A program made the translations under genes and the position numbers. 64,000 nt of DNA from assembly GCA_030390025.1 (NCBI GenBank), contig CM059432.1, forward strand, positions 84,260,001 to 84,324,000. The letters run 5' to 3'. How positions within the stretch are numbered: the first letter of the stretch is position 1; each line of letters opens with the position of its first letter. This DNA is from Squalus acanthias. Lineage: Eukaryota. Below are positions 17,786 through 57,932 of this stretch, in pieces. A model generated the notes under the pieces. The model had not been told where the DNA came from and searched no databases. It saw nothing but the letters and a program-made list of their open reading frames with translations.

Positions 17786-18437
17786 GGCCCGGATTTTGTG
17801 GTAAAAATAACAGTGAGGCTATCAACCGTTCACCGTTATTAAAGAGTAAATCAGACAGCAACTTTCAGTGACAGCACATGCGCAGTTAAATACGGAAATC
17901 AGGAAGTTGCTGTCCGAGTTGCCCTGCTCCTCCAGAAGCTGAGAGATTCTCATTCAAATACATGGAAGGTGTGAAGTTGTGGTACTTATGTGATAGCTAC
18001 CCACTAAACACGCCAGAAAAAGTTAGGACTTGTCCATTCCAGTGTAAGTACATTTTTAATGCTGTGCTAAGTCTTAATTACTGCCAAACAACCTCTCTGG
18101 GACTGAAAAGTGTGGAGTATCATTCCTTTAGATTTTAATTATTGTTGAAAATTTTTAAAAATTTAAAAAATATATTTTACATTTTTTTCTGTCTCTTTTA
18201 TCTCTCTCTTTTAATCCAATCTTTATTTCCCTCTCTTTATTTTGCTTTCTATACATGTTGCTTGTCCTGTTCACACAGGTTCCAAATCCCCGGATCACCC
18301 GTAGAGGGAACTGCGCTGAAATGGATTACTAATCACCGCAAGTTCCAGTGCAAAAGCCAATAGAAAGTCTGTGGGTAAGTGTAAGTGCAACGAATGGCTG
18401 GTGCCATTCGTTTGCCGCTGACTGCAAAATCCAGGCT
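17786..18437. mobile_element. Harbinger-type MITE, inverted sister of 12698-17406
   Basis: GGCCCGGATTTTG...CAAAATCCAGGCT termini. Internal sequence is the reverse-complement homolog of 16850-17406 and 12698-12780. Confidence 0.8.
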
Positions 18438-18465
18438 AGTATCAACCAGATTGCGATAGGTGTAA

Positions 18466-21400
18466 TTTGTTTTTATTCGCTTATGGGATCTGGGTGTCGC
18501 TGGCAAGGCCAGCATTTATTGCCTATCCCTAGCTGCCCTTGAGAAGGTGGTGGTGAGCCGCCTTCTTGAACCGCTGCAGTCCATGTGGTGAAGGTACTCC
18601 CACAGTGCTGTTAGGTAAGGAGTTCCAGGATTTTGACCCAGCGACGATGAAGGATCGGTGATATACTTCTAAGTCAGGATGGTGTGTGACTTGGAGGGGA
18701 ACTTGGAGGTGGTGGTGTTCCCATGTGTCTGCTGCCCTTGTCCTTCTAGGTGGAAGAGGTCGCGGGTTTGGGAGGTGCTGTCGAAGAAACCTTGGCGAGT
18801 TGCTGCAGTGCATCTTGTTGATGGAACACACTGCAGCCATGGTACACCGGTGGAGGGAGTGAATGTTTAAGGTGGTGGATGGGGTGCCAATCAAGTGGGC
18901 TGCTTTGTCTGGGATGGTGTCGAGCTTCTTGAGTTCCTGACTTGTGCATTGTAGATGGTGGAAAGGCTTTGGGGAGTCAGGAGGTGAGACACTCGCTGCA
19001 GAATACCTAGCCTCTGACCTGCTCTTGTTGCCACAGTATTTATATGGCTGGTCCAGTTAAGTTTCTGGTCAATGGTGACCCCCAGGATGTTGATGGTGGG
19101 GGATTCAGCGATGGTAATGCCATTGAATGTCAAGGGAAGGTGGTTAGACTCTCGTTTGTTGGAGGTAGTCATTGCCTGGCACTTCTGTGGCATGAATGTT
19201 ACCTGCCACTTAATCAGCCCTAAGCCTGAACGTCGTCCAGGTCTTGTTGCATGCATGCATGGACTGCTTCATTATCTGAGGAGTTGTGAATGGTGCTGAA
19301 CACTGTGCAGTCATCAGCGAACATCCCCATTTCTGACCTTATGTTGGGGGTAAGGTCATTGATGAAGCAGCTGAAGATGGTTGGGCCTAGGACACTGCCC
19401 TGAGGAACTACTGCAGCGATGTTTGACCTTCAGCCACCACAACCATCTTCCTTTGTGCTAGGTATGACTCAAGCCAGTGGAGCGTTTTCCCCGATTCCCA
19501 TTGACTTCAGTTTTACTAGGGCTCCTTGATGCCAGACTCGGTCAAATGCTGCCTTGATGTCAAGGACAGTCACTCTCACCTCACCTCTGGAATTCAGCTC
19601 CTTTGTCCATGTTTGGACCAAGGCTGTAATGAGGTCGGGAGCCGAGTGATCTTGGCGGAACCCAAACTGGGTATCACTGAGCAGGTGCCGCTTGATATCA
19701 CTGTCGATGACACCTTCCATCATTTTGTTGATGATTCAGAGTAGACTGATGGGGTGGTAATTGGCCAGGTTGGATTTGTCCTGCTTTTTGTGGACAGGAC
19801 TTACCTGGGCAGTTTTCCACATTGTCGAATAGATGCCAGTGTTGTAGCTGTACTGGAATAGCTTGGCTGGAGACACGGCTAGTTCTGGAGCACAAGTCTT
19901 CAGCACGATAGCAGGGATGTTGTCGGGGCCCATAGCCTTTGCTGTCTCCAGTGCGCTCAGCTGTTTCTTGTTATCACGTGGAGTGAATTGAATTGGCTGA
20001 AGACTGGCTTCTGTGATGGTGGGGACCTCAGGAGGAGGCCGATAGGGATCATCCACTTGGCACTTCTGGCTGAAGATGCTTCAGCCTTGTCTTTTACACT
20101 CACGTGATGGGCTCCACCATCATTGGGGATATTCATGGCGCCTCCTCCTCCGGTTAGTTGTTTAATGGTCCACCACCATTCACGACTGCAGAGCTTTGAT
20201 CTGATCCGTTGATTGTGGGATCGCTTAGCCTTGTCTATAGCATGCTGCTTCCGCTTTTTCGCATGCATGCATGTAGTCCTGTGTTGCAGCTTCCCCAGGT
20301 TGGCACCTCAGTTTTAGGTACACCTGGTGCTGCTCCTGGCATGATCTTCTACACTCCTTATTGAACCAGGGTTGGTCCCCTGGCTTGGTGGTAATGGTAA
20401 AGTGAGGGATATGCCGGGCCATGAGGTTACAGACTGTGGTGGAATACAATTCTGCTGCCCCACAGCACCTCATGGACGGCCAGTTTTGAGCTGCTAGATC
20501 TGTTCTGAATCTATCCACTCAACACGATGGAGGGTGTCTTCAGTGTGAAGACAGGACTTCATCTCCACAATGACTGTGCGGTGGTCACTGCTACCAATGC
20601 TGTCATGGACAGATGCATCTGCGACAGGTAGATTGGTGAGGACGAGGTCAAGTAGGTTTTCCCTCATGTTGGTTGTCGCAGGCACCAGACTTACAGTTAT
20701 GTCCTTCATAGTGGTGCTACCAAGCCACTTTTTGAAGTCTCCCACCCAGAGTACATTCTGTGCCCTTGCTACTCTCGGTGCTTCTTCCAAGTGGTGTTCA
20801 ACATGGAGGAGTACTGATGCATCAGCTGAGGGAGGGCAGTAGGTGGTAATCAGCAGGAGGTTTCCTTGCCCATTCTTGACCTGAAGCCATGAGACCTCAT
20901 GGGGTCCGGAGTCAATGTTGAGGACTCCCAGGGCCACTCCTTCCCAACTGTATACCACTGTGCCACCACCCCTGGTGATGGTGAGTTTGGGAACATTGGC
21001 TGAAAGGTATGATTCTGTCTATGTCAGGCTGTTGCTTGACTAGTCTGTGGGACAATTCTTGTGCACAAGTCCCCAGATGTTGGTGAGGAGGACTTTACAG
21101 TGTTGACTGGGCTGGGCATGCGTTGCCATGTCCATAGCCAGGTTGTCCATCCAGTTTCAATGTTACAACTGAGTGGCTTGCTAGGCCATTTCAGAGGGCA
21201 GTTAAGAGTCACCCACATTGCTGTGGGTCTGGAGTCACATATAGGTCAGACCAGGTAAGGACAGCAGATTTCCCTTTAGGACATTAGTGAACCAGATGGG
21301 TTTTTACGACAATCTGATAGTTTTATGGTTACTAGCTTTTTATTCCAGATTTATTTAATTAACTGTATTTAAATTTCCCGGCTGCCATGGTTGGGATTTG

Positions 21401-21478
21401 AACTCATATCTCTAGATCATTAAGTCAAGGCCTCTGGATTACTAGCCCAGTGACATTACCACTACACTACCGTACCCA
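18466..21478 (-). mobile_element. Full-length tRNA-headed single-ORF LINE (APE endonuclease + RT; CR1/L2/Jockey-like group), decayed copy
   Basis: tRNA-like head, then EN (KVLLTNIWGL..WVGDF..DLVLTN..SDH) and RT (QFGFR..LDIKAAFDRVWH..PQGSVLGP..FADD), and a 3' tail with AATAAA and GAATAAAAA. No ORF1. Confidence 0.9.
21394..21478 (-). promoter_or_regulatory. tRNA-derived internal Pol III promoter
   Basis: A box TAGTGTAGTGG (21469-21459) and B box GTTCAAATCC (21403-21394) on the - strand. Confidence 0.85.
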
Positions 21479-21599
21479 CTCTGTAAGCTAACACCCGTAG
21501 CAACTGTGACAAACCTTAAGGGTTACCAGTGAAAATACAAGTTTAAGTCTAATTCCAATAGTAGGAGATAAACAAAATAAAAATGTTAATAAAGTAAAT

Positions 21600-23952: not shown

Positions 23953-24079
23953 GATATCTTTAGTGTCACAGAGACATGATGGAATGATTCCACAATGGGA
24001 TACATATCTGGAAGTATTTAAATTGTTTTGAAGAAACCGTATCAGGAGAAAAGTAGGCAGTGTGACAATATATATAAAC

Positions 24080-25326
24080 ATCAGTGAAGAGCCCCACCTC
24101 TGACCTTATGATGGAGGAAAGGTCACTGATGAAACAGGTGAAGATAGTTGGGTCTAAGACGCTGCCCTGAGGAACTCCTGAAGCGATGTCCTGGCAGTGA
24201 AATGAATGGCCTCCAATGATCAAAACCATCTTCCTTTGTGTTAGGTATGACTCCAGCCAGTGGAGAGTTTTCCCCCCGATTCCCATTGACTTCAATTTTA
24301 CTAGGGCTCTTTAATGCCACACTCGGTCAAATGCTGTCTTGATGTCAAGGGCAGTCACTCTCACCTCACCTCTGGAATTCAGCTCTTTTATCCATGTTTG
24401 GACCAAGGCTGTAATGAGGTCTGGAGCCGAGTGATCCTGGCAGAACCCAAACTGAGCATCGGTGAGCTGGTTATTGGTAAGTGCCTCTTGATAGCACTGT
24501 CGCTGACACCTTCCATCACTTTGCTGGTGATTGAGAGTAGAGTGATGGGGCGGTAATTGGCCGAATTGGATTTGTCCTATTTTTTGTGGACAGGATACAC
24601 CTGGGCAATTTTCCACATTGTCGGGTAAATGCCAGTGTTTTTGCTGTACTGCAACAGCTTGGCTAAAGGTGCAGCTAGTTCTGGAGCACAAGTCTTCACC
24701 ACGACAGCCGGGATATTGTCAACGCCCATAGCCTTTGCTGTATGCAGTGCACTCAGCCGTTTCTTGATATCACGTGGAGTGAATCGAATTGGCTGAAGAC
24801 TGGCTTCTGTGATGGTGGGGACCTCAGGAGGAGGCCGAGATGGATCATCCACTTGGCACTTCTGGCTGGAAATGGTTGCAAACGCTTCAGCCTTGTCTTT
24901 TGAACTCACATGCTGGGCTCTGCCATCATTGAGGATGAGGATGTTCATGGAGCCTCCTCCTCCAGTTAGTTGTTTAATTGTCCACCACGATTCACAACTG
25001 GATGTGGCAGGACTGCAGCGCTTTGATCTGATCCGTTGATTGTGGGATCACTTAGCTCTGTCTATAGCACGCTATTTCCGCTGTTTAGCATGTATGTAGT
25101 CCTGTGTTGTAGCTTCACCAGGTCGACACTTCATTTTTAGGTACACCTGGTGCTGCTCCTGGCATGATCTTTTACACTCCTCATTGAACCAGGGTTGGTC
25201 CCCTGGCTTGATGGTAATGGTAGAGTGAGGGATATGCCGGGGCATGAGGTTACAGATTGTGGTGGAATACAACTCTGCTGCTGCTGCTGCCCCACTGCGC
25301 CTCATGGATGCCCAGTTTTGAACTGC
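24080..25326 (-). mobile_element. Internal fragment of the tRNA-headed LINE family
   Basis: Collinear with ~19310-20490 (TCAPELAAPLAKL; GVPQGSVLDP). Confidence 0.9.
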
Positions 25327-34970: not shown

Positions 34971-37563
34971 GAGTGGTCTACAGGCCCCCAAACAGTATCC
35001 ACACTGTAAGACAGGGAATAAATCAAGAAATAATAGAGGCTTGTAAGAAAGGTACAGCTATAATCATGGGAGATTTTAATTTTCATATTGATTAGACAAA
35101 GCAAAGGTAGACTTGAGGAAGAGTTCTTAGAGTGTATACGGGATGGTTTCTTGGAACAATATGTTGTGGAACCAACCAGGGAGAAGACTATTTTAGATCT
35201 GGTAATGTGTAACGAGGCTGGATTAATTAATGATCTCGAAGTGAAGGATCCACTTGGGAAGAGTGATCATAGCATGGTAGAATTTCAAATTCAGTTTGAG
35301 GGTGAGAAAGCTAGGTCTCAAACTAGTGTCCTGAACTTAAACAAAGGTAATTACAAAGGTATGAAGGCAGACTTGGTTAAAGTGGACTGGGAAAATATAT
35401 TAAAGGGTAAGACTGTAGAAAAGCAGTGGCAAACATTTAAGGAGATATTTCATAACTCTCAGCAAAGATATATTCCAGTGAGAAAGAAAGACTCTAAGAG
35501 AAGGATAAACCATCCGTGGCTAACTAAGGAAGTAAAGGATGGTATCAAATTGAAAACAAAAGCATACAATGTTGCGAAGAATAGTGAAAGGCCAGAGGAT
35601 TGGGAAATTTTTAAAAACCAGCAAAGGACGACTAAAAAAATGATAAAGGGAGAGAAGACAGCTTCTGAGAGTAAGCTAGCAAGAAATATAAAAACAGACA
35701 GTAAGAGCTTCTACAGGTATATAAAAAGGAAGAGAGTAGCTAAAGTAAACGTTGGTCCCCTGGAGGATGAGTCTGGGGAATTAATAATGGGAAACAGGGA
35801 AATGGCGGAGACTTTGAACAAATATTTTGTATCGGTCTTCACGGTAGAAGACACTAAAAGCATCCCAATAATGGATAATCAAGGGGCTATTGGGGGTGCG
35901 GGGCGGGGGGAGATCTTAAAACAATCACTATCACTAGAGAAAAAGTACTAGGCAAACTAATGGGACTAAAGGTGGACAAGTCCCCTGGACCCGATGGCCT
36001 GCATCCTAGAGTCTTAAAAGAGGTGGCTGCAGAGATAGTGGATGCATTGGTTGTAATCTACCAAAATTCCCTGGATTCTGGAGAGGTCCCAGCGGACTGG
36101 AAAACCGCAAATGTAACGCCCCTATTTAAGAAAGGAGGGAGACAGAAAGCAGGCAACTATCGACCAGTTAGCCTAACATCTGTCAATGGGAAAATGCTGG
36201 AGTCCATCATTAAGGAAGTGATAGCAGGACATTTAGAAAATCATAATATAGTCAAGCAGAGCTAGCACGGTTTTATGAAAGGGAAATGATGTTTGACAAA
36301 TTTGCTGGAGATCTTTGAGGATGTAACGAGCAGGGTGGATAAAGGGAAACCAGTAGATGTTGTGTATTTGGATTTCCAGAAGGCATTTGATAAGGTGCCA
36401 CATAAAAGGTTACTACACAGGATAAGAGCTCACGGGGTTGGGGGTAGTATATTAGCATGGATAGAGGATTGGCTAACTAACAGAAAACAGAGAATCGGGA
36501 TAAATGGGTCATTTTCAGGTTGGCAAACTATAACTAGTGGGGTGCCGCAGGGATCAGTGCTGGGGCCTCAACTATTTACAATCTATATTAATGACTTGGA
36601 TGAAGGGACTGAATGTAATGTAGCCAAATTTGCTGATGATACAAAGATAGGTGGGAAAGCAAATTGTGTGGAGGACGCAAAGAATTGCCAAAGGAATATA
36701 GATAGGCTAAGTGAGTGGGCAAAAATCTGGCAGATGGAGTTTAATGTGGGAAAATGTGAGGTTATCCACTTTGGTAGGAAAAATACAAAAGCAAATTATT
36801 ATTTAAATGGGGAGAGATTACAAAATGCTGAGGTACAGAGGGATCTGGGGATCCTTGTACATGAATCACAAAAGGTTAGCATGCAGGTACAGCAAGTAAT
36901 TAGGAAGGCAAATGGAATGTTAGCCTTTATTGCAAAGGGAATGGAGTATAAAAGTAGGGAAGTCCTGTTACAACTGTACAGGGCGTTGGTGAGACCACAC
37001 CTGGAGTACTGTGTACAGTTTTGGTCTCCTTATTTAAGGAAGGATATACTTGCATTGGAGGCAGTTCAGAGAAGGCTCATGAGGTTGATTCCGGAGATGA
37101 AGGGGTTGTCTTATGAAGAAAGGTTGAGCAGGTTGGGCCTATACTCATTGGAGTTTAGAAGAATGAGAGTGGATCTTATTGAAACATATAAGATTCTAAA
37201 GGGGCTTGACAGGGTAGATGCAGAGAGGATGTTTCCCCTCGTGGGGGAATCTAGAACTAGGGGGCATAATTTCAGAATAAGGGGAAACCCTTTTAAATCG
37301 GAAATGAGGAGCAATTTCTTCTCTCAGAGGGTCGTGAAACTTTGGGATTCTCTTCCCCAGAGAGCTGTGGAGGCTGGGTCATTGAATATATTTAAGGTGG
37401 AGATAAACAGATTTTTGAACGATAAGGGAGTCAAGGGTTATGGGGAGCGGGCAGGGAAGTGGAGTTGAGGCCAAGATCAGATCAGCCATGATCTTATTGA
37501 ATGGTGGAGCAGGCTCGAGGGGCCAAATGACCTACTCCTGCTCCTACATCTTATGTTCTTATG
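34970..37563 (+). mobile_element. Second CR1 LINE, 5'-truncated in EN, complete RT and 3' tail
   Basis: ORFs 35088-35951, 35960-36265 and 36293-37468 (FADD motif); 3' UTR ending TCTTATGTTCTTATG. Confidence 0.95.
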
Positions 37564-37598: not shown

Positions 37599-39125
37599 AC
37601 TGGTATGGAAGGTGGCATCGTCAGAGCAGATGCGGCGGAGATGGAGAAACTGGGAGAATGGAATAGAGTCCTTACAGGAAGTGGGGTGGGAGGAAGTGTA
37701 GTCCAGGTAGCTGTGGGAGTCAGTGAGCTTGTAGTGAATGTTTGTCAATCACCTATCCCCAGGGATGGAGACGGAGAAGTCGAGGAAGGGAAGGGAAGAG
37801 TCGGAGATGGACCATGTGAAGGTGAGGGAAGGGTGGAAAGGACGCTTCCTGTAAGGACTCTATTCCATTCTCCCAGTTTCTCCGTCTCCGCCGCATCTGC
37901 TCTGACGATGCCACCTTCCATACCAGTGCTTCCGACATGTCTTCCTTTTTCCTCAACCGAGGATTCCCCTCTACTGTGGTTGACACAGCCCTTGACCGTG
38001 TCCGTTCTATCTCCCGCACTTCTGCCCTCACCCCTGCCCCTCCCTCCTGGAACCACGATAGGGTTCCCCTTGTCCTCACCTTTCACCCCACCAGCCTCCA
38101 CATTCAACGGATCATCCTCCGCCAATTCCACCACCTCCAGCATGATCCCACCACCAAACACATCTTCCCCTCACCTCCCCTTTCAGCATTCCGAAGGGAC
38201 CGCTCCCTCCGCGACACCCTGGTCCACTCCTCTATCACCCCCAACACCCCTTCCCCCTGCAGCTTCCCGTGCAAGCGCAGGAGATGCAACACATGCCCTT
38301 ATACCTCCCCCCTTCCCACTGTCCAGGGCCCCAAACACCCCTTCCAAGTGAAACAGCGACTTACTTGTACTTCTTGCAATTTAGCATACTGCTCACAATG
38401 CGGTCTCCTCTACACTGGGGAGACCAAACGCAGATTGGGTGACAGCTTTGCGGAACACCTCCATTCAGTCCGTAAGGGGGACCCTGAGCTTCCGGTCGCC
38501 TGTCACTTTAATTCTCTGCTCCACTCCCACTCAGACCTCACCGTCCTAGGCCTCTTACATTGTTCCACTGAAGCTCGACGTAAGCTCGAGAAACAGCACC
38601 TCATCTTACGATTAGGCACTTTACAGCCTTCTGGACTCAACATAGAGTTCAACAATTTCAGATCATAACCTCAGCCCCTATCATATACATTTTTTTCCAC
38701 ACTTTTTTGTTTTGTTTTTTTTGTTTGTGTCTTTTCTTCTCTCCCACATGGCAGCTGTCTTTCATTCTGCCAGCGCAATTTACACTTCATCTAGAGCCAT
38801 CTTTTGTTTCTTAACCTGTCCCTTTACCATCTCCTTTTGCCTTGAATATCCGTTAATGTCTTTTAATGTCTCTTAACCTCTCCTGCCTTCTAACCTATCA
38901 CAGACCTTCCCTTTTGTTCTTTCATCCCCTCTCCCCTTTCCCAGCTCCTACACTTGCTTAAAAATCTGTTCTGTTTCCTGCTTTTTTCCAGTTCTGACGA
39001 AAGGTCATCGACCTGAAACGTTAACTCTGTTTCTCTCTTCACAGATGCTGCCTGACCTGCTGAGTATTTCCAGCATTTTCTGTTTTTATTTCAGATTTCC
39101 AGCATCTGCAGTATTTTCTTTTTGT
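37599..39125 (+). mobile_element. Penelope-like element, 5'-truncated with inverted 5' segment; GIY-YIG endonuclease ORF 37937-38668
   Basis: CKRRRCNTC..CSQCGLLYTGETKRRLGDSFAEH..HF..GLN motifs; 83-bp inverted repeat 37599-37681 / 37845-37927. Confidence 0.92.
38990..39026 (+). ncRNA. Minimal type I hammerhead ribozyme motif in Penelope 3' region
   Basis: AGTT-CTGACGA-AAGGTC ATC GACCT-GAAA-CGTT-AACT. Confidence 0.78.
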
Positions 39126-43745: not shown

Positions 43746-44249
43746 ATCATCTTTAAATAGCTCCCAAAACTGCAAAACAGACAATTTCAAATAGATTTCT
43801 TGGTAAACACACATTGCAAAATCAGTTATATAAAGTTAGGTCCAGTATTTTTATTATATTAGAACAGTTGTCCAACTTACTGTGTTTATTTCTTTGAGTC
43901 CTTTCATTGAATATTTAAAAAAAAATCAGTATCAGTTATTGAACTCCAACAGAGTAAAGAAGTCAATGCCTGTAAATAACAGAAAATATACACAGATATA
44001 GTCACTCATGCAGAAAAAAACATTGGCAGCTACAACTCATACAGACAACAGTTTTATTTAACAAATTGGAACTTTTCTTAGTCACTCACTAGTTTTTTAA
44101 TAAACATTTGGCTTCTGTTTCCTTGCATTGTCACTGCACTTTGAAGTAATTCATTGCATTAGAAGTATTTCGAAACATTTCTGAGCTGTGATAAGGTGTT
44201 GTATATAAATACAAGTTTTTCTTTTTCAGCATCACAGCTTTGATCTAGA

Positions 44250-45060
44250 TATGAGTGCAAAAACTGAATGCCAGACCAGAGATGAGTAGCTGCCCATGAT
44301 CTCAATACTTCATTTGACCAAGTATGGCACCAAGGAGCTATAGCCAAACTGAGGTCAATGGGGGCGGGTCAAAGGGAATTCCCTCTAATGTTTGGAGTCA
44401 TACCTAACACAAAGGAAGATTATTGTGGTTGTCAAGAGGTCATTCATTGCAGCCCAGGACATCACTGCAGGGGTTTCTCAGGGAAGCAGCTCCAGCCCAA
44501 TCATTTTCAGTTGCTTCATACTTAACCTTCCCTTCTTAATGCGATCAGAAGGCTGTTCACTGATGATTCCACAGCATTCAGCTCCATTCACAACTTCTCT
44601 GATAATGAAGCAGCCTTGCCAGCCTACAGCAGGACCTGGATAATATCCAGGGTTGGGCTGTCAAGTGACAGGTAACATTCATACCATATGTGTGCCAGGT
44701 AATTACGATCTCAAACAAGTAAAAGCCCAGGCACCTCCCCCGATCTTCAACATGTCACCATTATCTTTCCCTCATCTAGGTGGTCACCATTGACCAAAAG
44801 CTTAACTGGATTACCTATATCATGACTGTGTCTACAGGAGCAGGGCAGTAGCTGGACAGTCTGCAGCAAGTGGCTCACCTCCTCAACCCTGAAAGATTAT
44901 CCACTATCTATAAGGCTCAAGCCAGGAACTGTGATGGAATACTCATCACTCACCCAGATGAGTGCAGCTACAACACTCAAAAACTTCAACATCATCCAGG
45001 ATAGAGCTTGCTTGGCACTCCTGCCAACAGGCTCAATATCCACCGTCTCAATCACTAACA
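44250..45060 (+). mobile_element. Old diverged RT fragment of the tRNA-headed LINE family
   Basis: FDQVWHQGA..ESYLTQRK..AGVSQGS..FSCFI remnants. Confidence 0.8.
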
Positions 45061-45497: not shown

Positions 45498-48120
45498 GAA
45501 CATAACATAAGAACATAAGAAGTAAGAGCAAGAGTAGGCCATACGGCCCCTCGAGCCTGCTCCACCATTCGATAAGATCATGGCTGATCATCGACCTCAA
45601 CTCCACTTTCCCGCCCGATCTCCAGATCCCTTGATTCCCCTAGAGTCCAAAAATCTATCTGTCTCAGCCTTGAATATACTCAAAGACTCAGCATTCACAG
45701 CCCTCTGAGACAGAGAATTCCAAAGATTCACAACCCTCTGAGTGAAGAAATACTTCCTCATCTCAGTCTAAAATGGCCTACCCCTTATCCTGAGACTTTG
45801 CCCCCTAGTTCTAGATACTCCAGCCAGGGGAAACAACCTCTCAGCATCTACCCTGTCAATCCCCTTCAGAATATTGTATATTTCAATGAGATCACCTCTC
45901 ATTCTTCTAAACTCCAAAGAGTATAGGCCCATTCTACACAATCTCTCATCATAGGACAGCCCTCTCATCCCAGGAATCAATCTAGTGAACCTTCGTTGCA
46001 CCGCCTCCAAGGCAAGTATATCCTTCCTTAGATAAGGAGACCAAAACTGTGCACAGTACTCCAGGTGTGGTCTCACCAAGGCCCTGTACAATTGTAACAA
46101 GACTTCTTACTCTTATACTCCAACCCCCTTGCAATAAAGGCCAACATGCCATTTGCCTTCCTTATTGCTTGCTGTACCTGCATGCTAGCTTTCTGTGTTT
46201 CTTGCACGAGGACACCCAAATCTCTCTGAACACCAACATTTGAAAGTTTCTCACCATTTAAAAAATATTCTGTTTTTCTATTCTTCCTACCGAAGTGAAT
46301 AACCTCACATTTCCATACATTATATTCCATCTGCCACCTTACTGCCCACTCACTTAGTCTATCTATATCCCTTTGCAGACTCTTTGTGTTCTCCTCACAG
46401 CTTACTGTCCCATCTAGCTTTGTATCATCAGAAAACGTAGATACATTACACTCGGTCCCTTCATCTAGGTCATTAATATAGATTGTAAATAGCTGAGGCC
46501 CCAACACTGATCCTTGCGGCACCCCACTAGTTACAGCCTGCCAACCTGAAAAAGATCCGTTTATCCCTACTCTCTGTTTTCTGTCCGTTAACCAATCCTC
46601 TATCCATGCTACTATATTACCCCCAACCCCATGAGCCTTAATCTTGTGTAATAACCTTTTATGTGGCACCTTATCGAATGCCTTTTGGAAATCCAAATAT
46701 ACTACATCCACTGGTTCCCCTTTATCTACCCTGCTAGTTACATCCTCAAAAAACTCTAATAAATTTGTCAAACACGATTTCCCTTTCATAAAACCATGTT
46801 GCCTCTGCCTAATCATGTTATGATTTTCGAAGTGACTTGATACCACTTCCTTAAAAATGGATTCCAGCATTTTCCCGACGACTGATGTCAGGCTAACTGG
46901 CCTGTAGTTCCCCGTTTTATCTCTCCCTCCTTTCTTGAATAGCGGTGTTACATTTGCGACCTTCCAATCCGCTGGGAACATTCCAGAATCTAGGGAATTT
47001 TGGAAGATCAAAAGCAATGCATCCACTATCTCTTCGCCACCTCTTTTAGAACCCTAGGATGTAGGCCGTCAGGTCCTGGGGATTTGTCGGCTTTTAGTCC
47101 CATTAGTTTCTCTAGTACTTTTTCTCTACTTATATTAATTACGTTAAGCACCTGGTAGGCAACACAGCCTTCGGGATTCTCTTTCGCGGCTGCAGAGAAC
47201 AGTATCTATCCCCCTGACTATACTGTCCCCTACTACTACAACATTCCTTCCTTCTACCCCCACTTGGATGGCCCCCTGTACCACAGTGCCACGGTCAGTT
47301 TGCCCATTCTCCCTGCAGTCCTTTTCCTCATCCATACAGGTAGAAAGTACCTTGTACCTGTTGGACAAGGTCCAGGGCTGAGGCTCCTCCATCACTACAT
47401 CCTGGTTCCCCATACCTTCCTGACTCGCAGTCACACTCTCCTGTCCCTGACCACTGACAAACTCTAAAGTACTACTTAACCTAAAGGGTGTGACTGCCTC
47501 CTGGAACAAAGTGTCCAGGTAACTCTCCCCCTCCCTGATGCATCGCAATGTCTGCAGCTCGTACTCCAGCTCAACAATTCTGAGCTGAAGTTCCTCGAGG
47601 TGCAGACACTTACTGCAGATGTGGTTGCTCGGGAACGTGATGCTCTCCATAGACTCCCACATGCTGCAGTTACGACACACCACCTGCCCTGCCATCTCTA
47701 ACCTTGTTTTATTTATTAATTAATTAGTTAAAGATTTTATTCAATCGATATTTTAGGTTTATTGTTTGATTATTTTTAGTTTAAGTTATTAATTTAATAA
47801 GTACTAGCAAATTACGGTTTCTCAGCTCTTAATTTAACCCCCTTTCCTAATTTGGAGAGCAAAAAGAGCTGTAATACTCACCTACCAATCACCTACCTGC
47901 TCTCCTGTGACGTTACTCTTTGATGTTGTTTTTGAATCGTTGCCTCCCACTGCTGCTGCTTTAATTCAGGTCCGCTCCCAGGCCGCTCTTTATCCTCTCG
48001 CCGCTGCCGCTGCTTTAATTCAGGGCTACTCTCGGGCCGCTCTTTATCCTCTCGCCACTGCCACTGCTTTAATTCAGCTCTGCTCCTGGGCTGCTCTTTA
48101 TCCTCTCACCGCTGCCGCTG
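45498..48120 (-). mobile_element. CR1 LINE with intact 5' end and large internal deletion
   Basis: 5' tandem repeats; ORF1 47144-47695 (CxxC..CxxC zinc finger/leucine zipper, VVGDS) joined directly to the RT region; 3' tail (TTCTTATG)n. Confidence 0.92.
47947..48120. repeat. 54-bp tandem repeat, ~3.2 copies, in CR1 5' UTR
   Basis: TTAATTCAG recurs at 47961, 48015 and 48069. Confidence 0.9.
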
Positions 48121-49474: not shown

Positions 49475-49724
49475 GGGGGAAAAATTTGGTTGCTTTGCGC
49501 CTCCCGTTAGCGTCCTAAGCAACTCGCGCCCGGGCACGGCGCCAACGCCTCCCGCGAAATTCAACGTTGTGCCGCGATATTGGGCTGGAGTGCCCCAAGA
49601 GGAAGGGGGAGTGCTTCCAGTAGCACCCTGCCTCCTGCTTGGGGCGCTACCATCGAATTTTGGGCGCAGTAGCGCTAACTTTTTTGGCGCGCTAAAAGTA
49701 GCTCCCCGGCAAAGTTAGCGCCCC
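49475..49724. mobile_element. Harbinger terminal fragment/MITE related to 6467-10567
   Basis: TAA-GGGGGAAAAATT...GCGCCTCCCGTTAGCG matches the reverse complement of ~10530-10567. Inserted in a CR1 3' fragment (49240-49474). Confidence 0.75.
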
Positions 49725-49726
49725 TA

Positions 49727-50016
49727 GAGTCTTGGACTAATGATCTGGAGACATGAGTTCAAATCCAACCACAGCAGCTGGGAAATTTAAATTCAGTTAA
49801 TTAAATAAATCTGGAACCCATCCGGTTTACTCATGTCCTTTAAGGAAGGAAATCTGCTGTCCTTACCTGGTCTGGCCTATATGTGACTCGATACTCACAG
49901 CAATATTGTTTAATCTTAACTGCCCTCTGGAATGGCCCAGCAAGCCACTCAGATATATCAAAGGGCAATTAGGGATGGGCAAAACGCCCACATCCTGTGA
50001 ATGAATAAAAGAAAAG
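49727..50016 (+). mobile_element. tRNA-derived SINE composed of the head and tail of the tRNA-headed LINE
   Basis: B box GAGTTCAAATCC (49755-49766). Body homologous to 21170-21440 and tail homologous to 18470-18540. Confidence 0.88.
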
Positions 50017-50020
50017 CAAT

Positions 50021-50763
50021 GGCCCAGAAATTAAAGACTGAGTGTTGACGCGGGGGTAAGGCTTCCCCGCGATCTCTCACTCCGCGTTGGCTTTTTCAGT
50101 TCCAGCTCGCACGAACTTGATGTTCTGGACAGCTGCTGTGCTGGGCTTGCGTATCCCACCGGCGTAGTGAATTCGTGCGAGCTGTGGGATCACGTGACTC
50201 AGTTAGAGCCAATGGCAGCACACCATCTTCCATTCATAAGTTTCACATAAGTGCTGTGAAAGCTATGAATCTTACACCCCCCCAAAATAACAGCTAAACC
50301 TCAATTAAATTTTAAAAAAACCCATCACATTAATAAAATAAGTACAGTTAAATAAATTAACCATTTTAAATAAAAAATTAAATTTTTGAAAAAATTTAAA
50401 ATCTTTTAAAAAGTTATAAAAATAAACTTACCTGTCTTTAAAGTCTCTAAAAAAGATATACCTGTTAAAAAAAATTCAAAATAATACTTAATTCACTACT
50501 TAGCTTGTTAAAAGTGGGTCTTACTCCTCCTTTTTTCATTTCTAAAATCTTCCGTCCTTACCTGCGCGTCCAAAGCACTAAGTACACAGCGTGCGCGCAG
50601 CCTGTAGCGCGCATGCGGTGCACCGAGGACCCGCCCCCTTTTCCATTCACCAAGTGCCGGTTTTCAGCGCATGCGCAGTGCATGCAGAAAACCGGCAATT
50701 GGAGACAGAATACGCGAGAGTATGCAGTGCGTACTCTCGCGTCGCGGGACTAATTTTTGGGCC
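50021..50763. mobile_element. Harbinger-type MITE, CpG-rich ends and AT-rich core
   Basis: GGCCCAGAAATTA / TAATTTTTGGGCC termini; flanks AAT/ATT. Confidence 0.75.
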
Positions 50764-51096
50764 ATTATCAGTCAGAAAATAACTTTAGAAATGTTTGTTG
50801 CCTGCTCCTAAACAAATAATGGCCTCAGTGATAAAGTCTCACTCTCCTCAGCACCCACTTTATAGGGGCAACTACTTCATACTTACACACATTGACCAAA
50901 ATTTTTACATTGAACAGAGTGCGGGTTCACGAGCGGGTCAGCAGTTAAAAGCGCTGAAATTGACAGCTCGTCAGGAGCCCGCATTCATCCCGCCGACTTC
51001 CGCCTTTAACTCAGACACCTTTCCCAGCATGCCACAGACCCACTCAGGAAAGGCGGGCGACCTCATTAAAGTATTTAACAGCTCATTGACAGATCC

Positions 51097-53848
51097 TTAG
51101 GGAGGGAGTTCCAGGATTTTGACCCAGCGACGATGAACGAACTGTAATATATTTCCAAGTCAGGATGATGTGTGATCTGGAGGGGAACTTGAAGGTGATG
51201 GTGTTGCCATGCGCCTACTGCCCTTGTCCATCTTGGCAGTAGAGGTCGCGGGTTTGGGAGGTGCTGTCGAAGAAGCCTTGGCGAGTTGCTGCAGTGCATC
51301 TTGTAGATGGTGCAAACTGCAGCCCCGGTGAGCCAGTGGTGGAAGGAGTCAACATTTAACATGGTGGATGGGGTGCCAATCAAGCGGGCTGCTTTGTCCT
51401 GGATGGTGTCGAGCTTCTTGAGTGTTGTTGGAGCTGCACTCATCCAAGCAAGTGGAGAGTATTCCATCACACTCCTGACTTGTGTCTTGTAGATGGTGGA
51501 AAGGCTTTGGGGAGACAGGAGGTGAGACACTCGCCGCAGAATACCCAGCCCCTGACCTGCTCTTGTAGCCACAGTATTTATGTGGCTGGTCCAGTTAAAT
51601 TTTTGGTTAATGGTTACCCCCAGGATGTTGATGGTGGGGATTCGGCGATGGTAATGCCGTTGAAAATCAAGGGGCAGTGGTTAGATTCTCTCTCGTTGGA
51701 GATAGTAATTGCTGGCACTTGTGTGGCACAAATGTTACTTGCCACTTAGCAGCCCAAGCCTGAATGTTGTCCAGGTCTTGCTGCAAGCGGGCATGAACTG
51801 CTTCATTATCTGGGGAGTTGCAAATGGAACTGAACACTGTGCAATCATCAGCAAATGTCCCTACTTCTGACCTTATGATGGAGGGAAAGTCATTGATGAA
51901 GCAGCTGAAGATGGTTGGGCCTAGAATACTGCCCTGAGGAAGTCCTGCAGTGATGATCTGAGGCATAGATGATTGGCCTCCAACAACCATAACCATCTTC
52001 CTTTGTGCTAGGTATGATTCCAGCTAGTGGAGAGTTTTCCCCGATTCCAATTGACTTCATTTTTATTAGGGCTCCTTGATGCCACAGTTGATCAAATGCT
52101 GCCTTGATCTCAAGGGCAGTCACTCTCACTTCACCTCTGGAATTCAGCTCTTTTTTCCATGTTTGGACCAAGGCTGTAATGAGGTCTGAAGCAGAGCGGA
52201 TCTGGCAGAAACCAAACTGAGCATTAGTGAGCAGGTTATTGGTAAGTGCCACTTGATAGCACTGTTGACGACACCTTCCATCACTTTGCTGATGATTGAG
52301 AGTAGACTGATGGGGCGGCAATTGGCTGGATTGGATTTGTCCTGCTTTTTGTGGACAGGACATACCTGGGCAATTTTCCACTTTGTTGGGTAGATATAAG
52401 TGTTGTCACTGTACTGGAACAGCTTGGCTAGAGGTGAAACTAGTTCTAGAGCACAAATCTTCAGCACAGCAGCCAGGATGTTGTCGGGCCCATAGCCTTT
52501 GCTGTATGCAGTGCGATCAGCTTTTTCTTGATGTCAGGTGGAGTGAATCAAATTGGCTGAAGACTGGTTTCTGTGATGGTGAGGACCTCAGGAGGAAGCT
52601 GAGATGGATCATCCACTCGGCACTTCTGGCTGAAGATGGCTGTGAACGCTTCAGCCTTGTCTTTTGCACTCATGGGCTCTGCCATCATGGAGGATGGAGA
52701 GGTTCATGGAGCCTCCTCCTCCCGTTCGTTGTTTAATTGTCCACCACCATTCACGACTGGATGTGGTACGACTGCAGAGCTTTGATCTGATCCGTTGGTT
52801 GTGGGATTGCTTAGTTCTGTCTATAGCATGCTGCTTCCGCTATTTAGCATGTATGTAGTCCTGTTTTGTAGCTTCAGCAGGTTGACAACTCATTTTTAGG
52901 TATGCCTGGTGCTGCTCCTGGCATGCTCTTCTACACTTCTCATTGAAACAGGATTGGTACCCTTGCTTGATGATAATGGTAGAGATGAGGATATGCTGGC
53001 CCATGAGGTTACAGATTATGCTAGAATACAATTCTGCTGCTGGTGATGGCCCACAGCGCCTCATGGATGCCCAGTTTTGAGCTGCTAAACCTGTTATGAA
53101 TCTATCCCATTTAGCACCGTGGTAGTGCCACACAACACGATGGAGAGTGTCCTCAGTGTGAAGACAGGAATTCATCTCCACAAGGACCGTGCGGTGGTCA
53201 CTCCTACCAATACTGTCATGGACAGATGCACCTGCGACAGGTAGATTGGTGAGAATGAGGTGGAGTAGGTTTTTCGCTTGTGTTGTTTCTCCCACCACCT
53301 GCCGCAGGCCCAGTCTGGCAGCTATGTCCTTCAGGACTCAGCCAGCTTGGTCAGTAGTGGTGCTACCAAGCCACTCTTGGTATTGGACATTGAAGTCCCC
53401 CACCCAGAGTACGTTCTGTACCCTTGCTACCTTCAGTGCTTCTTCCAAGTGGTGTTCAACATGGAGGAGTACTGATTCATCAGCTGAGGGAAGGTGGTAG
53501 CAGGAGTTTCCTTGCCCATGTTTGACCTGATGCCATGAGACTTCCGGAGTCAATGTTGAGGACTCCCAGGCAATGTTCCCCCTAATTTTTTTTTGGGTGC
53601 AACTTTTTAAGGGGCTGTGCGGCTCATTCAGTTTTACGTATGCACGAAACTAAACATTGAAAAAGCCGGTCCTGGGCTGTGCGGGACTGGCAGAGAGCTG
53701 CGCGGCTGCGCGGCACAGCTTAGAGGGAATGTTGCTTCCCAGGCCACTCCATCCAGACTGTATACCACTGTGCCGCCACCTCTGGTGGGTCTGTCCTGCC
53801 AGCAGGTCAGGACATACCCAGGGATTGTGATGGAGGAGTCTGGGACAG
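51097..53848 (-). mobile_element. Long copy of the tRNA-headed LINE family, both ends missing
   Basis: EN (VPDSSITIPGY..WVGDFN..SDH) through RT (GTFADD) and C-terminus. Confidence 0.92.
53571..53734. mobile_element. hAT-type MITE, same family as 2443-2576
   Basis: CAATGTTCCC...GGGAATGTTG; near-perfect TSD CTCCCAGG / CTTCCCAGG. Confidence 0.85.
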
Positions 53849-53849
53849 T

Positions 53850-54260
53850 GGGCATTGAATCTGCTTCCACCACCCTTTCAGGCAGTGCATTCCAGATCAC
53901 AACAACTCGCAGTGTTAAAAATGTTTCCTCATGTCTCCTCTGGTTCTTTTGCCAATCACCTGAAATCTGTGCCTTCTGGTTATTGACCCTTCTACCACTG
54001 GAAACAATTTCTCCTTATTTACTCTATCAAAACCATTCATGAACTTGAGCGCCTCTATCAAATCTCCTCTTAACCTTTTCTGTTCAAAGCTTCTCCAGTC
54101 TCTCCATATAACTGAAGTCCCTCATCCCTAGTAACATTCTAGTAAATCTCTTCTGCACCCTCTCTAAGGTCTTGATATACTTACAAAAATATGGTATCCA
54201 GAATTGGCCACAATACTCCAACAGAGGCTCAACTAGTGTTTTATAAAAGTTTAGCATAAC
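53850..54260 (-). mobile_element. CR1 3' fragment
   Basis: LEYCGQFW..LERVQKRFTRM and IWNALPERVVEA. Confidence 0.8.
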
Positions 54261-54440: not shown

Positions 54441-56980
54441 CTTTTTTTAAATTCATTCATGGGATGTGGGCGTCGCTGGCAAGGCTAGCATTTATTGCCC
54501 ACCCCTAATTGCCCTTGAGAAGGTGGTGGTGACCTGCCTTCATGAACCGCTGCAGTCTGAGAGGTGAAGGTACTCCCACAGTGCTGTTAGGGAGGGAGTT
54601 CCAGGATTTTGACCCAGTGACGATGAAGGAATGGCGATATATTTCCAAGTCAGGACGGTGTGTGACTTGGAGGGGAACTTGCAAGTGGTGGTGTTCCCAT
54701 GCGCCTGCTGCCCTTGTCCTTCTAGATGGTTTGGAAGGCGCTGTCGAAGAAGTCTTGGCGAGTTGCTGCAGTGCATCTTGTAGATGGTACACACTGCAGA
54801 CATGGTGTGCCAGTGGTGGAGAGGGTGAATGTTTAAGGTGGTAGATGAGGTGCCAATCAAGCAAGCTGCTTCATCCTGGATGGTGTCGAGCTTCTTGAGT
54901 GTTGTTGGAGCTGCACTCATCCAGGCAAGTGGAGAGTGTACCATCACACTCTTGACTTGTGTCTTGTGAAAAGACTTTGGGGAGTCAGGAGGTGAGTAAC
55001 TCGCTGCAGAATATCCAGCCTCTGACCTGCTCTTGTAGCCACAGTATTTATGTGGCTGGTCCAGTTAAGTTTCTGGTCAATGGTGACCCCCCCAGGATGT
55101 TGATGGTGGGGGTTTCGGCAATGGTAATCTCATTGAATGTCAAGGAGCAGTGGCTAGACTCTCTCTTGTTGGAGATGGTCATTGCCTGGCACTTGTATGG
55201 CGCGAATGTTACTTGCCCAAGCCTGAATGTTTTCCAAGTCTTGCTGCATGCGGGCATGAACTGCTTCATTATCTGAGGAGTTGCAAATGGAACTGAACAC
55301 TGCAATCATCAGCGTGGCAGGCAGTGACTAGTGGGGTACCGCAGGGATCGGTGCTCGGACCCCCGTTATTCACAATATATATTAATGATCTAAACGAGGG
55401 AACTAGATGTAATATCTCCAAGTTTACAGACAACACAAAGCTGGGTGGGCGTGTGTGCTGTGAGGAGGATGCAGAGAAACTCCAGTATGATTTGGACAGG
55501 TTGGGTGATTGGGCAGATGCATGGCAGATGCAGTATAATGTGGATAAATGCGAGGTTATCCACTTTGGTGGCAAAAACAGGAAGGCAGATTATTATCTGA
55601 ACGGCAATAGATTGGGAAAAGGGGAAGTGCAACGAGACCTGGGTGTCCTTGTGCACCAGTCGCTGAAGGTAAGCATGCAGGTGCAGCAGGCGGTTAAGAA
55701 GGCAAATGGTATGTTGGCCTTCATAGCGAGAGGATTCGAGTACAGGATCAAGGATGTCTTGCTGCAGTTGTACAGGGCCTTGGTGAGACCACACCTTGAG
55801 TATTGTGTGCAGTTTTGGTCGCCTTATCTGAGGAAGGATGTTTTTGTCATGGAGAGAGTGCAGCGAAGATTCACCAGACTGATACCTGGGATGGCAGGAA
55901 TGACGTATGAAGAGAGATTGGGTCGATTGGGCTTGTATTCGCTAGAGTTTAGAAGAATGAGAGGGGATCTCATTGAAACTTATAAAATTCTAACAGGACT
56001 AGACAGACTAGATGCAGGAAGGATGTTCCCGATGGTGGGAGAGTCCAGAACCAGGGGTCACAGTCTAAGGATAAGGGGTAAGCCATTTAGGACTAAGATG
56101 AGGAGGAATTTCTTCACCCAGAGAGTGGTGAACCTGTGGAATTCTCTACCACAGAAGACAGTTGAGTCCAATTTATTAAATATATTCAAGAAGGAGTTAG
56201 ATATATTTCTTAAGGCTAACGGGATCAAGGGATATGGGGAGAAAGTAGGTACTGAATTTGGATGATCAGCCATGATCGCATTGAATGGCAGAGCAGGCTC
56301 AAGGGGCCGAATGGCCTACTCCTGCTCCTATCTTCTATGTTTCTATGAACATCCCCACTTCTGACCTTATGATGGAGGGAAGGTCATTGATGAAGCAGGT
56401 TGAAGATGGTTGGGCCTAGGACACTGCCCTGAGGCACTCCTGCAGCAATGTCCTGGGGCGTTGGTCCAAACATGGACAAAAGAGCTGAATTCCAGAGGTG
56501 AGGTGAGAGTGACTGCCCTTGAAAACAAGACAGCATTTGACCGAGTGTGGCATCAAGGAGCCCTAGTAAAAATGAAGTCAATTGGAATCAGGGGGAAAAC
56601 TCTCCACTGACTGGAGCCATACCTAGCACAAAGGAAGATAGTTGTGGTTGCCCAACCTCTGGAATTCAGCTCTTTTGTCCATGTTTGGACCAACGCTATA
56701 ATGAGGTCTGGTGCAGAATGGTCCTAGCGGAACCCAAACTTAGCACAGTGAGTAGGTTTTTGATGAGTATGTGCTGTTTAATAGCACTGTCGCCGACACC
56801 TTCCTTCACTTTGCTAATGATTGAGAGTAGGCTGATGGGATGGTAATTGGCCGGATTGGATTTGTCCAGCTTTCTGTGGACAGGACATACCTGGACAATT
56901 TTACACTTTGTCGGGTAGATGCTCGTGTAGTAGTTGTACTGGAACAGCTTGGCTAGAAGTGTGGCTAGTTCTGGAGCACT
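54441..56980 (-). mobile_element. 5'-truncated copy of the tRNA-headed LINE family, with CR1 insertion and internal inversion
   Basis: Intact 3' tail at 54441-54520. RT split at FADD by a CR1, and segment 56458-56650 is inverted. Confidence 0.9.
55315..56346 (+). mobile_element. Young 5'-truncated CR1, open RT C-terminal frame 55324-56265
   Basis: GVPQGSVLGP..RPHLEYCVQFW; tail TTCTATGTTTCTAT. Confidence 0.95.
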
Positions 56981-57932
56981 AGTTCTGGATGCAGGGTTTT
57001 TATACTACATGGGTTGGTGTTACCCATCAGAAACATCTTAAACGGCTCCGTTACATGTTTCCTCAGGGTATGACCCAGATCTGGTAACTCAATAATGACA
57101 AAGGATTGAATCTGAACCTTCCTGGTCTGTGCAACATTGAGTAATACATTTACTCAATGAGCTATAGGGGAGCAGGTAAAAGCTTTGACTTGATATTTTT
57201 AATAACAGTTAACAATAAATATACTTGTCACTGAAATAATAAGGAAACCTCAAACACAAAGGAGAAATATTAAACATAGATCAATTTACAATCCAGTCAG
57301 TGTTGCTTTTTTCAACTGTATCTTTCCTTTATCCAGGTGAAAATATCAGGCATTTGACAAAAGAGGCCTATTTTGCATTTTTAAAAAGCACCATTAATCT
57401 ATAATTCAATAGGCAATTACATACACTGTCATAGGGCAGGCCATTTGAGGTAATACTGAATCATGATTGAGAGTCAACTGCATTTTTTGCCTGACTTGGG
57501 AGAAACAGAATAAAATCTTGATGCACAGCTTGTGATGGAGTTATACACTGTGTTGGCCAAGGTTCTCTGCAAGAGAACAATTCAGTATGAATAGCTCGTC
57601 ACGGAGGATGCAAGGTGGATGGAAGGATACTCCTTCCAAAGCAACATTTATTTTTATTCACAAGAGTTCCTGTGCAATAATTTTGTTAACTGTCAAAACA
57701 GTTCATTTCCTCAATATTTTAATGTAAGATTAATTCTTACTTCCGTGAAGGCTTTACAGTTTACCCAACACAAATTAAGAATTAGATTAAACAATTTATT
57801 CTACTGCTGCTGTAGCAAGAGTATCAGTAGTCTTATCATCACCACGAAACGGTTCGCATTTCGGATCTCTTCTTCCTCGCCCTTCGTTTATTTGTTCTCT
57901 TCCAATATATCGTTCAATTAAAAATCAGACCA

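What the first reader, a model, noticed from the sequence alone, without database searches (positions are those of the whole stretch)
49727..50016. SINE that is an internal-deletion derivative of the tRNA-headed LINE
Seen: the SINE matches the LINE 5' region (B box, AATTTAAA..AATAAATCTGGAA, CCTTACCTGGTCTG, GCAAGCCACTCAG). At ~49960 it jumps to the LINE 3' tail (AAGGGCAATTAGGGATGGGCAA..CCCACATCC..GAATGAATAAAA), with TCAA at the junction also present in the LINE tail (TTCTCAAGGGC). Established: SINEs usually share only the 3' tail with their partner LINE, and some have bipartite LINE-derived bodies. Inference: here head, body and tail all derive from one autonomous element, so the SINE was born by simple deletion; alternatively the LINE captured the SINE head as its promoter.
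Basis: partly seen in the sequence, partly recalled or inferred. Interest (0 to 1): 0.75.

Follow-up and report, generated by a model that had tools for sequence, protein, structure and literature searches.

The report
SINE cut from a tRNA-headed LINE
This short repeat is a protein-coding jumping gene (LINE) with its coding middle missing: the LINE itself begins with a tRNA-like promoter head, so one deletion yields a complete SINE, and several different deletion points exist, which offers a one-step, repeatable route for SINE birth.

Summary
Observation confirmed. 49726-50016 matches the 5' 270 nt of a LINE copy at 21476-18466 (-), at K2P 0.12, the same distance as between LINE copies (0.115-0.138), then jumps at TCAA to the LINE's last codons and 3' UTR. 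The LINE copy is tRNA head + 140-nt body + one EN-RT frame, no ORF1. The junction is not unique to this locus: contigs from 4 of 4 runs (3 organisms) carry it. It is not fixed either: it accounts for 22 of 192 contigs among 10 listed head-to-tail joints (tails 74-145 nt). Two whale-shark gene models run body into endonuclease. No tRNA head was found in 18 distant relatives, so the head is a lineage-specific gain. The body is not Deu, Meta, CORE or UCON3 and the head is not SacSINE1's; my recalled label failed. Best reading: the LINE gained a head, then repeatedly shed SINE-like deletion derivatives (0.6). SINE-first capture stays open (0.25). Pol III transcription is inferred from A/B boxes and T-run depletion only. 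Ten paper searches found no report; Repbase and Dfam could not be checked. This scan noted the same LINE family before on other DNA of this genome.

The parts
49726..50016 (+). SINE-like bipartite derivative, 5'-truncated and decayed (whole element)
49726..49814 (+). 3' part of the tRNA-derived head plus AT-rich linker; B box at 49755-49766, A box missing
   Evidence: 89.9% to LINE A 21435-21345; box scan
49815..49957 (+). body module shared with the LINE 5' region; preceded by a 42-nt gap relative to LINE A; matches none of the SINE domains tested
   Evidence: 88.2% to 21302-21164; motif tests
49958..49962 (+). junction: TCAA microhomology plus one A
   Evidence: joint 18539/21164 in 4 of 4 runs
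49963..50016 (+). LINE-derived tail: last ORF codons, stop, 3' UTR basal stem (20-nt inner hairpin lost), A-rich end
18466..21476 (-). LINE copy A: tRNA head, body, single broken EN-RT frame, 3' tail; no ORF1; no T4 run on the sense strand
21383..21476 (-). tRNA-like head of LINE A (anticodon AGT, long variable arm); A box 21469-21459, B box 21405-21394
   Evidence: ARAGORN; Rfam tRNA 19.9 bits, below the gathering score of 29
21164..21302 (-). body module in LINE A; contains an ATG at 21218
20497..21100 (-). endonuclease region, starting about 65 nt after the body
   Evidence: Pfam PF14529 E 2e-4, below cut-off; homologues
18466..18542 (-). LINE A 3' tail retained by this SINE class
51097..53570 (-). 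LINE copy B, no head or tail in place (a 5' piece lies at 53737-53873)
24076..25326 (-). LINE copy C, internal fragment
54441..55314 (-). LINE copy D, 3' fragment with tail; closest in-window match to the SINE tail

Best explanation
Two steps. (1) An ORF1-less, single-frame EN-RT LINE of the CR1 group gained a tRNA-derived head in the shark lineage; head plus a 140-nt body became its 5' region. (2) During reverse transcription the enzyme, having copied 74-145 nt from the 3' end, jumped at short microhomologies (here TCAA) to the end of the body, dropping about 2.6 kb of coding sequence. The product has a Pol III internal promoter, a body and the 3' stem-loop, so it is a complete SINE without any head capture, and it was copied in trans by the LINE enzyme. 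49726-50016 is an old, 5'-truncated, dead copy of the short-tailed class. Shown: the homologies, equal divergence, recurrence and variety of joints, absence of a head in distant relatives. Inferred: the template jump, Pol III transcription, amplification in trans, and the order of events.
For: SINE head to LINE head K2P 0.121 against 0.115-0.138 for five LINE-LINE pairs. The tail starts inside the last codons of the LINE frame, so it is LINE-derived. Of 15 joints listed (of 4,534), 10 skip 2,553-2,639 nt from body end to tail; ours is in 4 of 4 runs, 8+8+3+3 contigs, 3 organisms. Four further joints (18564-18571) cluster at a second TCAA in the tail and one has a 3-nt overlap. 2 of 46 endonuclease homologues, both whale-shark gene models, run body-derived peptide into endonuclease (E 9e-6 and 1.5e-5; 0 of 1,840 shuffled proteins reach that). 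The body matches no tested SINE domain, so no older SINE superfamily explains it. Sense-strand T4 runs: 0 in copy A against 4.4 expected from base content; the 3 runs in copies B-D are each private to one copy; five relatives of similar T content show 7/6.5, 4/2.3, 8/6.7, 10/9.8 and 3/2.0.
Against: No listed contig bridges body to endonuclease (32 of 512,785 pieces shown), and the two gene models may contain predicted introns. Only one headed LINE copy is in the window. Our joint is marked 'between: not known', and copy A differs from other copies just after 21164, so clustering at 21164 is partly set by the reference. No target-site duplication at the SINE or at LINE A. T-run depletion is weak against dinucleotide shuffles (pooled 3 against 7.8, P 0.04; copy A alone P 0.14) and absent against trinucleotide shuffles (P 0.21), and the four copies overlap. 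Nesting of the LINE among headless relatives is not significant (p-AU 0.124). Template switching from a pre-existing SINE would give the same products.
Confidence: 0.6

Rival explanations
1. SINE first. An unnamed tRNA SINE (head + body) existed and was repeatedly fused by template switching to LINE 3' parts of different lengths; the longest fusion, taking the whole frame, made the headed LINE. The SINE is then a sister or parent of the LINE head, not its deletion product.
For: No tRNA gene by ARAGORN in 18 of 18 relative loci, no B box in 18 of 18 upstream regions, no head similarity in 17 of 17 scored (highest z 2.4); L009 and L012 share a 5' boundary 702 nt upstream without a tRNA. 7 of 10 joints end at the same head position while tails vary. 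Loose ends after the body are A-rich. Tail exchange is common among SINEs (PMC5499810, PMC7245038, PMC3747384).
Against: No tested SINE domain matches the body. Head divergence equals family divergence. All 10 listed head joints lead to this LINE's own tail, though this reference could show no other. The A-rich consensus has agreement of about 0.5 and may be a blurred linker.
Confidence: 0.25
2. The short forms are not an amplified SINE family but one-off products: aborted LINE insertions or later microhomology-mediated DNA deletions in headed LINE copies.
For: Many different joints; each in 0-27 contigs per run out of 10,734-337,897 laid; this copy has no A box and no target-site duplication.
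Against: The same joint appears in 8 contigs in each DNA run and in 3 organisms; random deletions would not concentrate at body end and last 145 nt, as 10 of the 15 listed joints do.
Confidence: 0.11
3. The head on LINE A is a local accident: an independent SINE inserted next to a 5'-truncated LINE, and the two share only the usual 3' tail.
For: Only 1 of 4 close copies in the window has the head; the others are fragments. No duplication brackets copy A.
Against: The head at 21476-21164 has no tail of its own and stops about 65 nt before the endonuclease; two whale-shark models show the same order; the T-free sense strand spans the whole copy.
Confidence: 0.04

Closest known systems
Bipartite non-autonomous LINEs and SINEs built on them (Bov-A/Bov-tA from Bov-B, RIME from Ingi, SINE2-1_ACar from Vingi; Kojima 2018, PMC5786205)
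   Same: 5' and 3' parts of one LINE joined by loss of the coding middle; moved by the parent enzyme.
   Different: That paper lists only RTE, Ingi, Vingi and R2 as sources of ORF-less bipartite elements, treats them as Pol II transcripts and needs a second event to add the tRNA head. Here the parent is in the CR1 group by relatives and tree, and already carries the head.
SacSINE1 / SacSINE1-CM / LmeSINE1 Deu-SINEs with L2-2_CM or CR1-4_DR-like tail (PMC5499810, PMC3747384)
   Same: tRNA head, body and CR1/L2-group tail in cartilaginous fishes.
   Different: The printed SacSINE1 head (positions 2-78) and Deu alignments do not resemble this head or body by eye, and their motifs are absent from the window. 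Only tail sharing with the LINE was reported. The SacSINE1 tail was not visible to me, so a shared partner LINE is untested.
HE1 SINE / HER1 LINE pair of sharks and rays (listed in PMC3747384; sequence identity recalled)
   Same: Shark tRNA SINE with a CR1-group partner.
   Different: A SINE of apparently that type lies at about 32500-32817 (-) and shows no BLASTN match to this SINE; the window's other CR1 copies are about 28% identical to this LINE in the RT region.
RTE-1_DAn and relatives (one sentence in PMC5786205)
   Same: A LINE that contains a tRNA-like sequence.
   Different: RTE clade; the paper removed these hits as accidental and does not describe position, promoter use or derived SINEs in the parts read.
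CR1-Zenon-like LINEs (label recalled; the class is named for whale shark and bivalves)
   Same: EN-RT frame; 37-46% RT identity to most single-frame metagenome relatives.
   Different: No named reference was available to test the label; the relatives have no tRNA head.

Membership tests
tRNA-derived SINE (SINE2) | tRNA-derived head with A and B boxes | tested here: met
   B box at 49755; A box only in the LINE A head, lost by truncation in this copy
tRNA-derived SINE (SINE2) | 3' tail shared with a partner LINE, A-rich end, no coding capacity | tested here: met
tRNA-derived SINE (SINE2) | many dispersed copies with the same structure and target-site duplications | tested here: inconclusive
   same joint in 22 contigs of 4 runs; loci not resolved; no duplication at this copy
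tRNA-derived SINE (SINE2) | transcribed by RNA polymerase III | not testable with these tools
   only contigs were offered, which show no starts or strand
Bipartite (internally deleted) LINE derivative | 5' part homologous to the 5' region of the same LINE as the tail | tested here: met
   88.9% over 225 sites; body-to-endonuclease order also in 2 whale-shark models
Bipartite (internally deleted) LINE derivative | derived from the LINE rather than the reverse | tested here: inconclusive
   tail polarity clear; head polarity not resolved
Deu-SINE / SacSINE1 | Deu domain in the body | tested here: not met
   two 17-letter Deu motifs: 0 matches at up to 3 mismatches; a 15-letter one: 1 chance match at 11029, outside the element; comparison by eye with printed alignments
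Deu-SINE / SacSINE1 | SacSINE1 tRNA head | tested here: not met
   motif absent at up to 3 mismatches; printed head differs
CORE-, Meta- and UCON3-SINEs | respective central domain | tested here: not met
   one motif each: Meta 0, UCON3 0, CORE 1 chance match at 55206; single motifs, so a very diverged domain could be missed
V-SINE (HE1) | V domain and HER1-type tail | tested here: inconclusive
   no match to the window's own HE1-like copy, but that label is recalled and no reference V domain was seen
CR1-group LINE (parent) | apurinic endonuclease plus reverse transcriptase in one frame | tested here: met
   collinear TBLASTN of the 962-aa EN-RT protein P0034 over 20970-18541, E 8e-98
CR1-group LINE (parent) | ORF1 upstream | tested here: not met
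   only about 380 nt precede the endonuclease in copy A; longest upstream frame 23-122 codons in 10 relatives checked
CR1-group LINE (parent) | clade placement against named references (CR1, Zenon, L2) | not testable with these tools
   no Repbase or Dfam; tree has unnamed rows only

The most novel reading that the evidence does not exclude
An autonomous, protein-coding retrotransposon transcribed by RNA polymerase III from its own tRNA head, purged of T4 terminators over 3 kb, that acts as a SINE factory: each microhomology jump from tail to body end yields a finished SINE in one step, and this has happened several times independently in sharks.
Probability: 0.35. Interest if true: 0.85.

Novelty: new variant of a known kind. 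Interest (0 to 1): 0.66.

Why it matters
The published model for LINE-derived SINE bodies needs two events (deletion, then capture of a small-RNA head) and is documented for RTE, Ingi, Vingi and R2 only. A CR1-group LINE that already carries the head gives a one-step route and a source for an otherwise anonymous SINE body. Several junction classes in one family make the birth process countable and datable in existing shark genomes. If the LINE is really made by Pol III, it raises the question of how an uncapped Pol III RNA is translated into a protein of about 1,000 residues.

Tried and rejected
Recalled label 'SacSINE1 / Deu-SINE': held until, then rejected on printed sequences and motif tests. 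With it fell two arguments: that the great age of the Deu domain proves SINE-first, and that the 458-nt joint class equals the 463-bp SacSINE1. No whole genome is held. DNA patterns for the body found nothing in viral, metagenome or prokaryote genome contigs; protein scans of viral contigs found no relative. Rfam: nothing at gathering score in the window; no ribozyme match in 14 of 18 relative loci searched. The idea that the ATG at 21218 inside the body starts the LINE frame got no support from a search with that 64-residue peptide (weak search); it stays untested. Contig depth along the LINE was not used, since it cannot rank parts. No RNA holder was listed; X16 and X18 are only guessed to be RNA, so nothing is concluded on expression. 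ESM Atlas calls gave only generic EN-RT clusters. A head-tail RNA duplex was computed without a control and not used. Rows dropped from the tree: L002, L013, L016, L017, L018 (under 150 residues in the RT region); P0034 was labelled headless although its DNA was not seen. A recalled precedent of Bov-B carrying captured SINEs was not confirmed.

Full report
Observation. The element at 49726-50016 (+) has one long match in the window: the 5' end of a LINE copy (copy A) at 21476-18466 on the minus strand. SINE 49726-49957 aligns to 21435-21164 at 88.9% over 225 sites, with one 42-nt gap; the score is 307.5 against at most 59 in 300 block shuffles. After TCAA plus one A (49958-49962) the SINE continues as the LINE tail, matching copy A (75% over 52 sites) and copy D at 54519-54441 (88.5%), with a 20-nt gap that removes the inner hairpin and keeps the basal stem. 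The tail begins inside the last codons of the LINE frame, so it is LINE-derived. This copy lacks the first 41 nt of the head with the A box and has no adjacent target-site duplication: it is a dead copy.

The LINE. Copy A reads tRNA-like head (ARAGORN 21383-21476; Rfam tRNA 19.9 bits, below the gathering score) with A and B boxes, an AT-rich linker, a 140-nt body, about 65 nt, and then one broken endonuclease-reverse transcriptase frame, collinear with a 962-residue single-frame relative (P0034; E 8e-98). There is no room for ORF1. Three other close copies in the window (B, C, D) are fragments without a 5' end. K2P distances between LINE copies are 0.115-0.138 for five pairs; SINE head to LINE head is 0.121. 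The heads are therefore not merely distantly similar.

Is the head part of the family? Among 46 endonuclease homologues from three searches, two have body-derived peptide directly upstream of the endonuclease match: P0007 (E 1.5e-5) and P0028 (E 9e-6); none of 1,840 shuffled proteins reached that level. Both are whale-shark gene models and may contain predicted introns. Laid contigs did not show a piece bridging body to endonuclease among the 32 pieces listed of 512,785. Earlier notes of this scan describe the same headed LINE at other places in this genome (75 notes fit the look-up, 8 shown); they are unchecked leads and are not counted as support.

Is the junction fixed? Contigs of four runs (X5 and X16 organism A, X13 organism E, X18 organism F) were laid on 18420-21560 at 80% likeness. 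Of 4,534 joints, 15 are listed; 10 of these skip 2,553-2,639 nt from the body end to the tail. The joint that matches this SINE (18539/21164) is in all four runs (8, 8, 3, 3 contigs), 22 of the 192 contigs in those 10 rows. Tails kept range from 74 to 145 nt. Four joints (18564, 18567, 18570, 18571) cluster at a second TCAA in the tail, one (18559/21185) has a 3-nt overlap, and others lie at 18556, 18576, 18579 and 18610. Loose ends at 21164 show that other copies continue with TCAA after the body (850 records in X13, 47 in X18; agreement about 0.5), which supplies the head side of the microhomology that copy A lacks. Caveats: several joints, ours included, are marked 'between: not known'; sides are 18-57 letters; contigs are not loci; copy A differs from other copies right after 21164. 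The junction is thus recurrent but one of at least five classes.

What the body is not. I first took the element for SacSINE1, a shark Deu-SINE, from recall. The SacSINE1 head printed in the supplement of PMC5786205 and the Deu, Meta and UCON3 alignments in the supplement of PMC7245038 do not resemble it by eye. Seven motifs from these prints give no match in the element; two give one chance match each elsewhere in the window. A different SINE with a CR1-type tail at about 32500-32817 does not match it either. The body is an unnamed module as far as these tests reach, which removes the argument that an ancient SINE domain must have been captured.

Direction. A scan of metagenome contigs gave 18 loci of relatives, 26-57% identical to P0034. 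None of 18 has a tRNA gene or a B box upstream, and none of 17 scored resembles the head. Several are 5'-incomplete, but L009 and L012 share a 5' boundary 702 nt upstream with different flanks. In an RT tree the window LINE groups with these relatives to the exclusion of the window's CR1 copies (100/99), but its nesting among them is not significant (p-AU 0.124). The head is therefore a derived gain; its donor, bare tRNA or lost SINE, is not resolved.

Promoter. Copy A has no T4 run on its sense strand (4.4 expected from base content, P 0.012); the three runs in copies B, C and D are each absent from the two other copies covering the site. Five relatives of similar T content are at or above expectation, and the window's CR1 copies show 26 against 23.7. 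The signal is weak against dinucleotide shuffles (P 0.04 pooled, 0.14 for copy A) and absent against trinucleotide shuffles. It fits Pol III transcription of the whole LINE, which stops at T runs (established knowledge), but does not show it.

Mechanism. Most likely the LINE gained the head and then shed its coding middle several times by microhomology jumps during reverse transcription, each product being a complete SINE moved by the parent enzyme (0.6). Rivals: SINE first with repeated template switches (0.25); one-off deletions without amplification (0.11); chance adjacency at copy A (0.04). The first two make the same molecules and differ only in genealogy, which whole genomes can settle.

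Literature. [quoted passage not shown] PMC5499810 (parts 1-4 of 6; supplement not available, and it may show the L2-2_CM tail) reports only tail sharing for shark SINEs. Passages only were read of PMC7245038 (plus supplement file 1 whole), PMC4824008 (one supplement file not searchable), PMC3747384, PMC2746220, PMC11481361 and bioRxiv 443036. Nishihara 2006 was not held; Ogiwara 1999 is recalled. Ten searches listed no paper describing a tRNA-headed shark LINE or SINEs deleted from it; three of them used Deu or Nin terms that turned out to be beside the point, the library lacks most subscription journals, and Repbase and Dfam were not available. The labels CR1-Zenon-like and HE1-like are recalled.

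Verdict. Real, not locus-specific, and a new variant of bipartite LINE derivatives: the parent carries the tRNA head, belongs to a group not known for such derivatives, and appears to have produced several junction classes. Interest 0.66; 0.85 if Pol III transcription and repeated one-step birth hold (probability 0.35).

Noticed in passing
window 21218 (-) and junction 49958-49962: An ATG inside the body opens a frame that, read through the TCAA overlap without this copy's extra A, would be in phase with the last codons and stop of the LINE frame. The 3' body may encode the protein's N-terminus; the ATG is mutated in this SINE copy.
   Followed up: partly
window 32500-32817 (-): A second, unrelated tRNA SINE with a CR1-type tail (HE1-like by recall), useful as an internal control.
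   Followed up: partly
window 49477-49725 and 50021-50950: GC-rich, inverted-repeat-rich flanks; 49470-49519 matches 10572-10524, close to a DDE_Tnp_4 (Harbinger-type) transposase gene at 8904-10195. The SINE sits among DNA-transposon remnants, which may explain the lost 5' end.
   Followed up: partly
window 44230-45037 (+): A more diverged relative of the LINE (K2P 0.30 to copy A), possibly an older subfamily; its 5' end is absent, so head status is unknown.
   Followed up: partly
L003/L004 and L009/L012, 5' regions: Conserved 450-700 nt 5' regions without ORF1 in single-frame relatives; motifs resemble HDV-like ribozymes by recall, but Rfam gave no match.
   Followed up: partly
window 56346-56983: Rearranged LINE fragments in both orientations with a 42-nt perfect inverted repeat (56458-56499 and 56655-56696), possibly a 5' inversion product.
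   Followed up: no
window 8904-10195, 15281-16302, 29482-30080: Several Harbinger-type transposon copies; the first has a DDE_Tnp_4 frame (E 2e-40) and an oppositely oriented second gene at about 6730-8591.
   Followed up: no
window 33095-37563, 45506-47719, 55297-56347: CR1-type LINE copies of a second family, one nested in another at about 34967; normal T-run content.
   Followed up: partly
window 37826-38668 (+): A 280-codon frame resembling the C-terminal part of a Penelope-like element (by recall), not tested.
   Followed up: no
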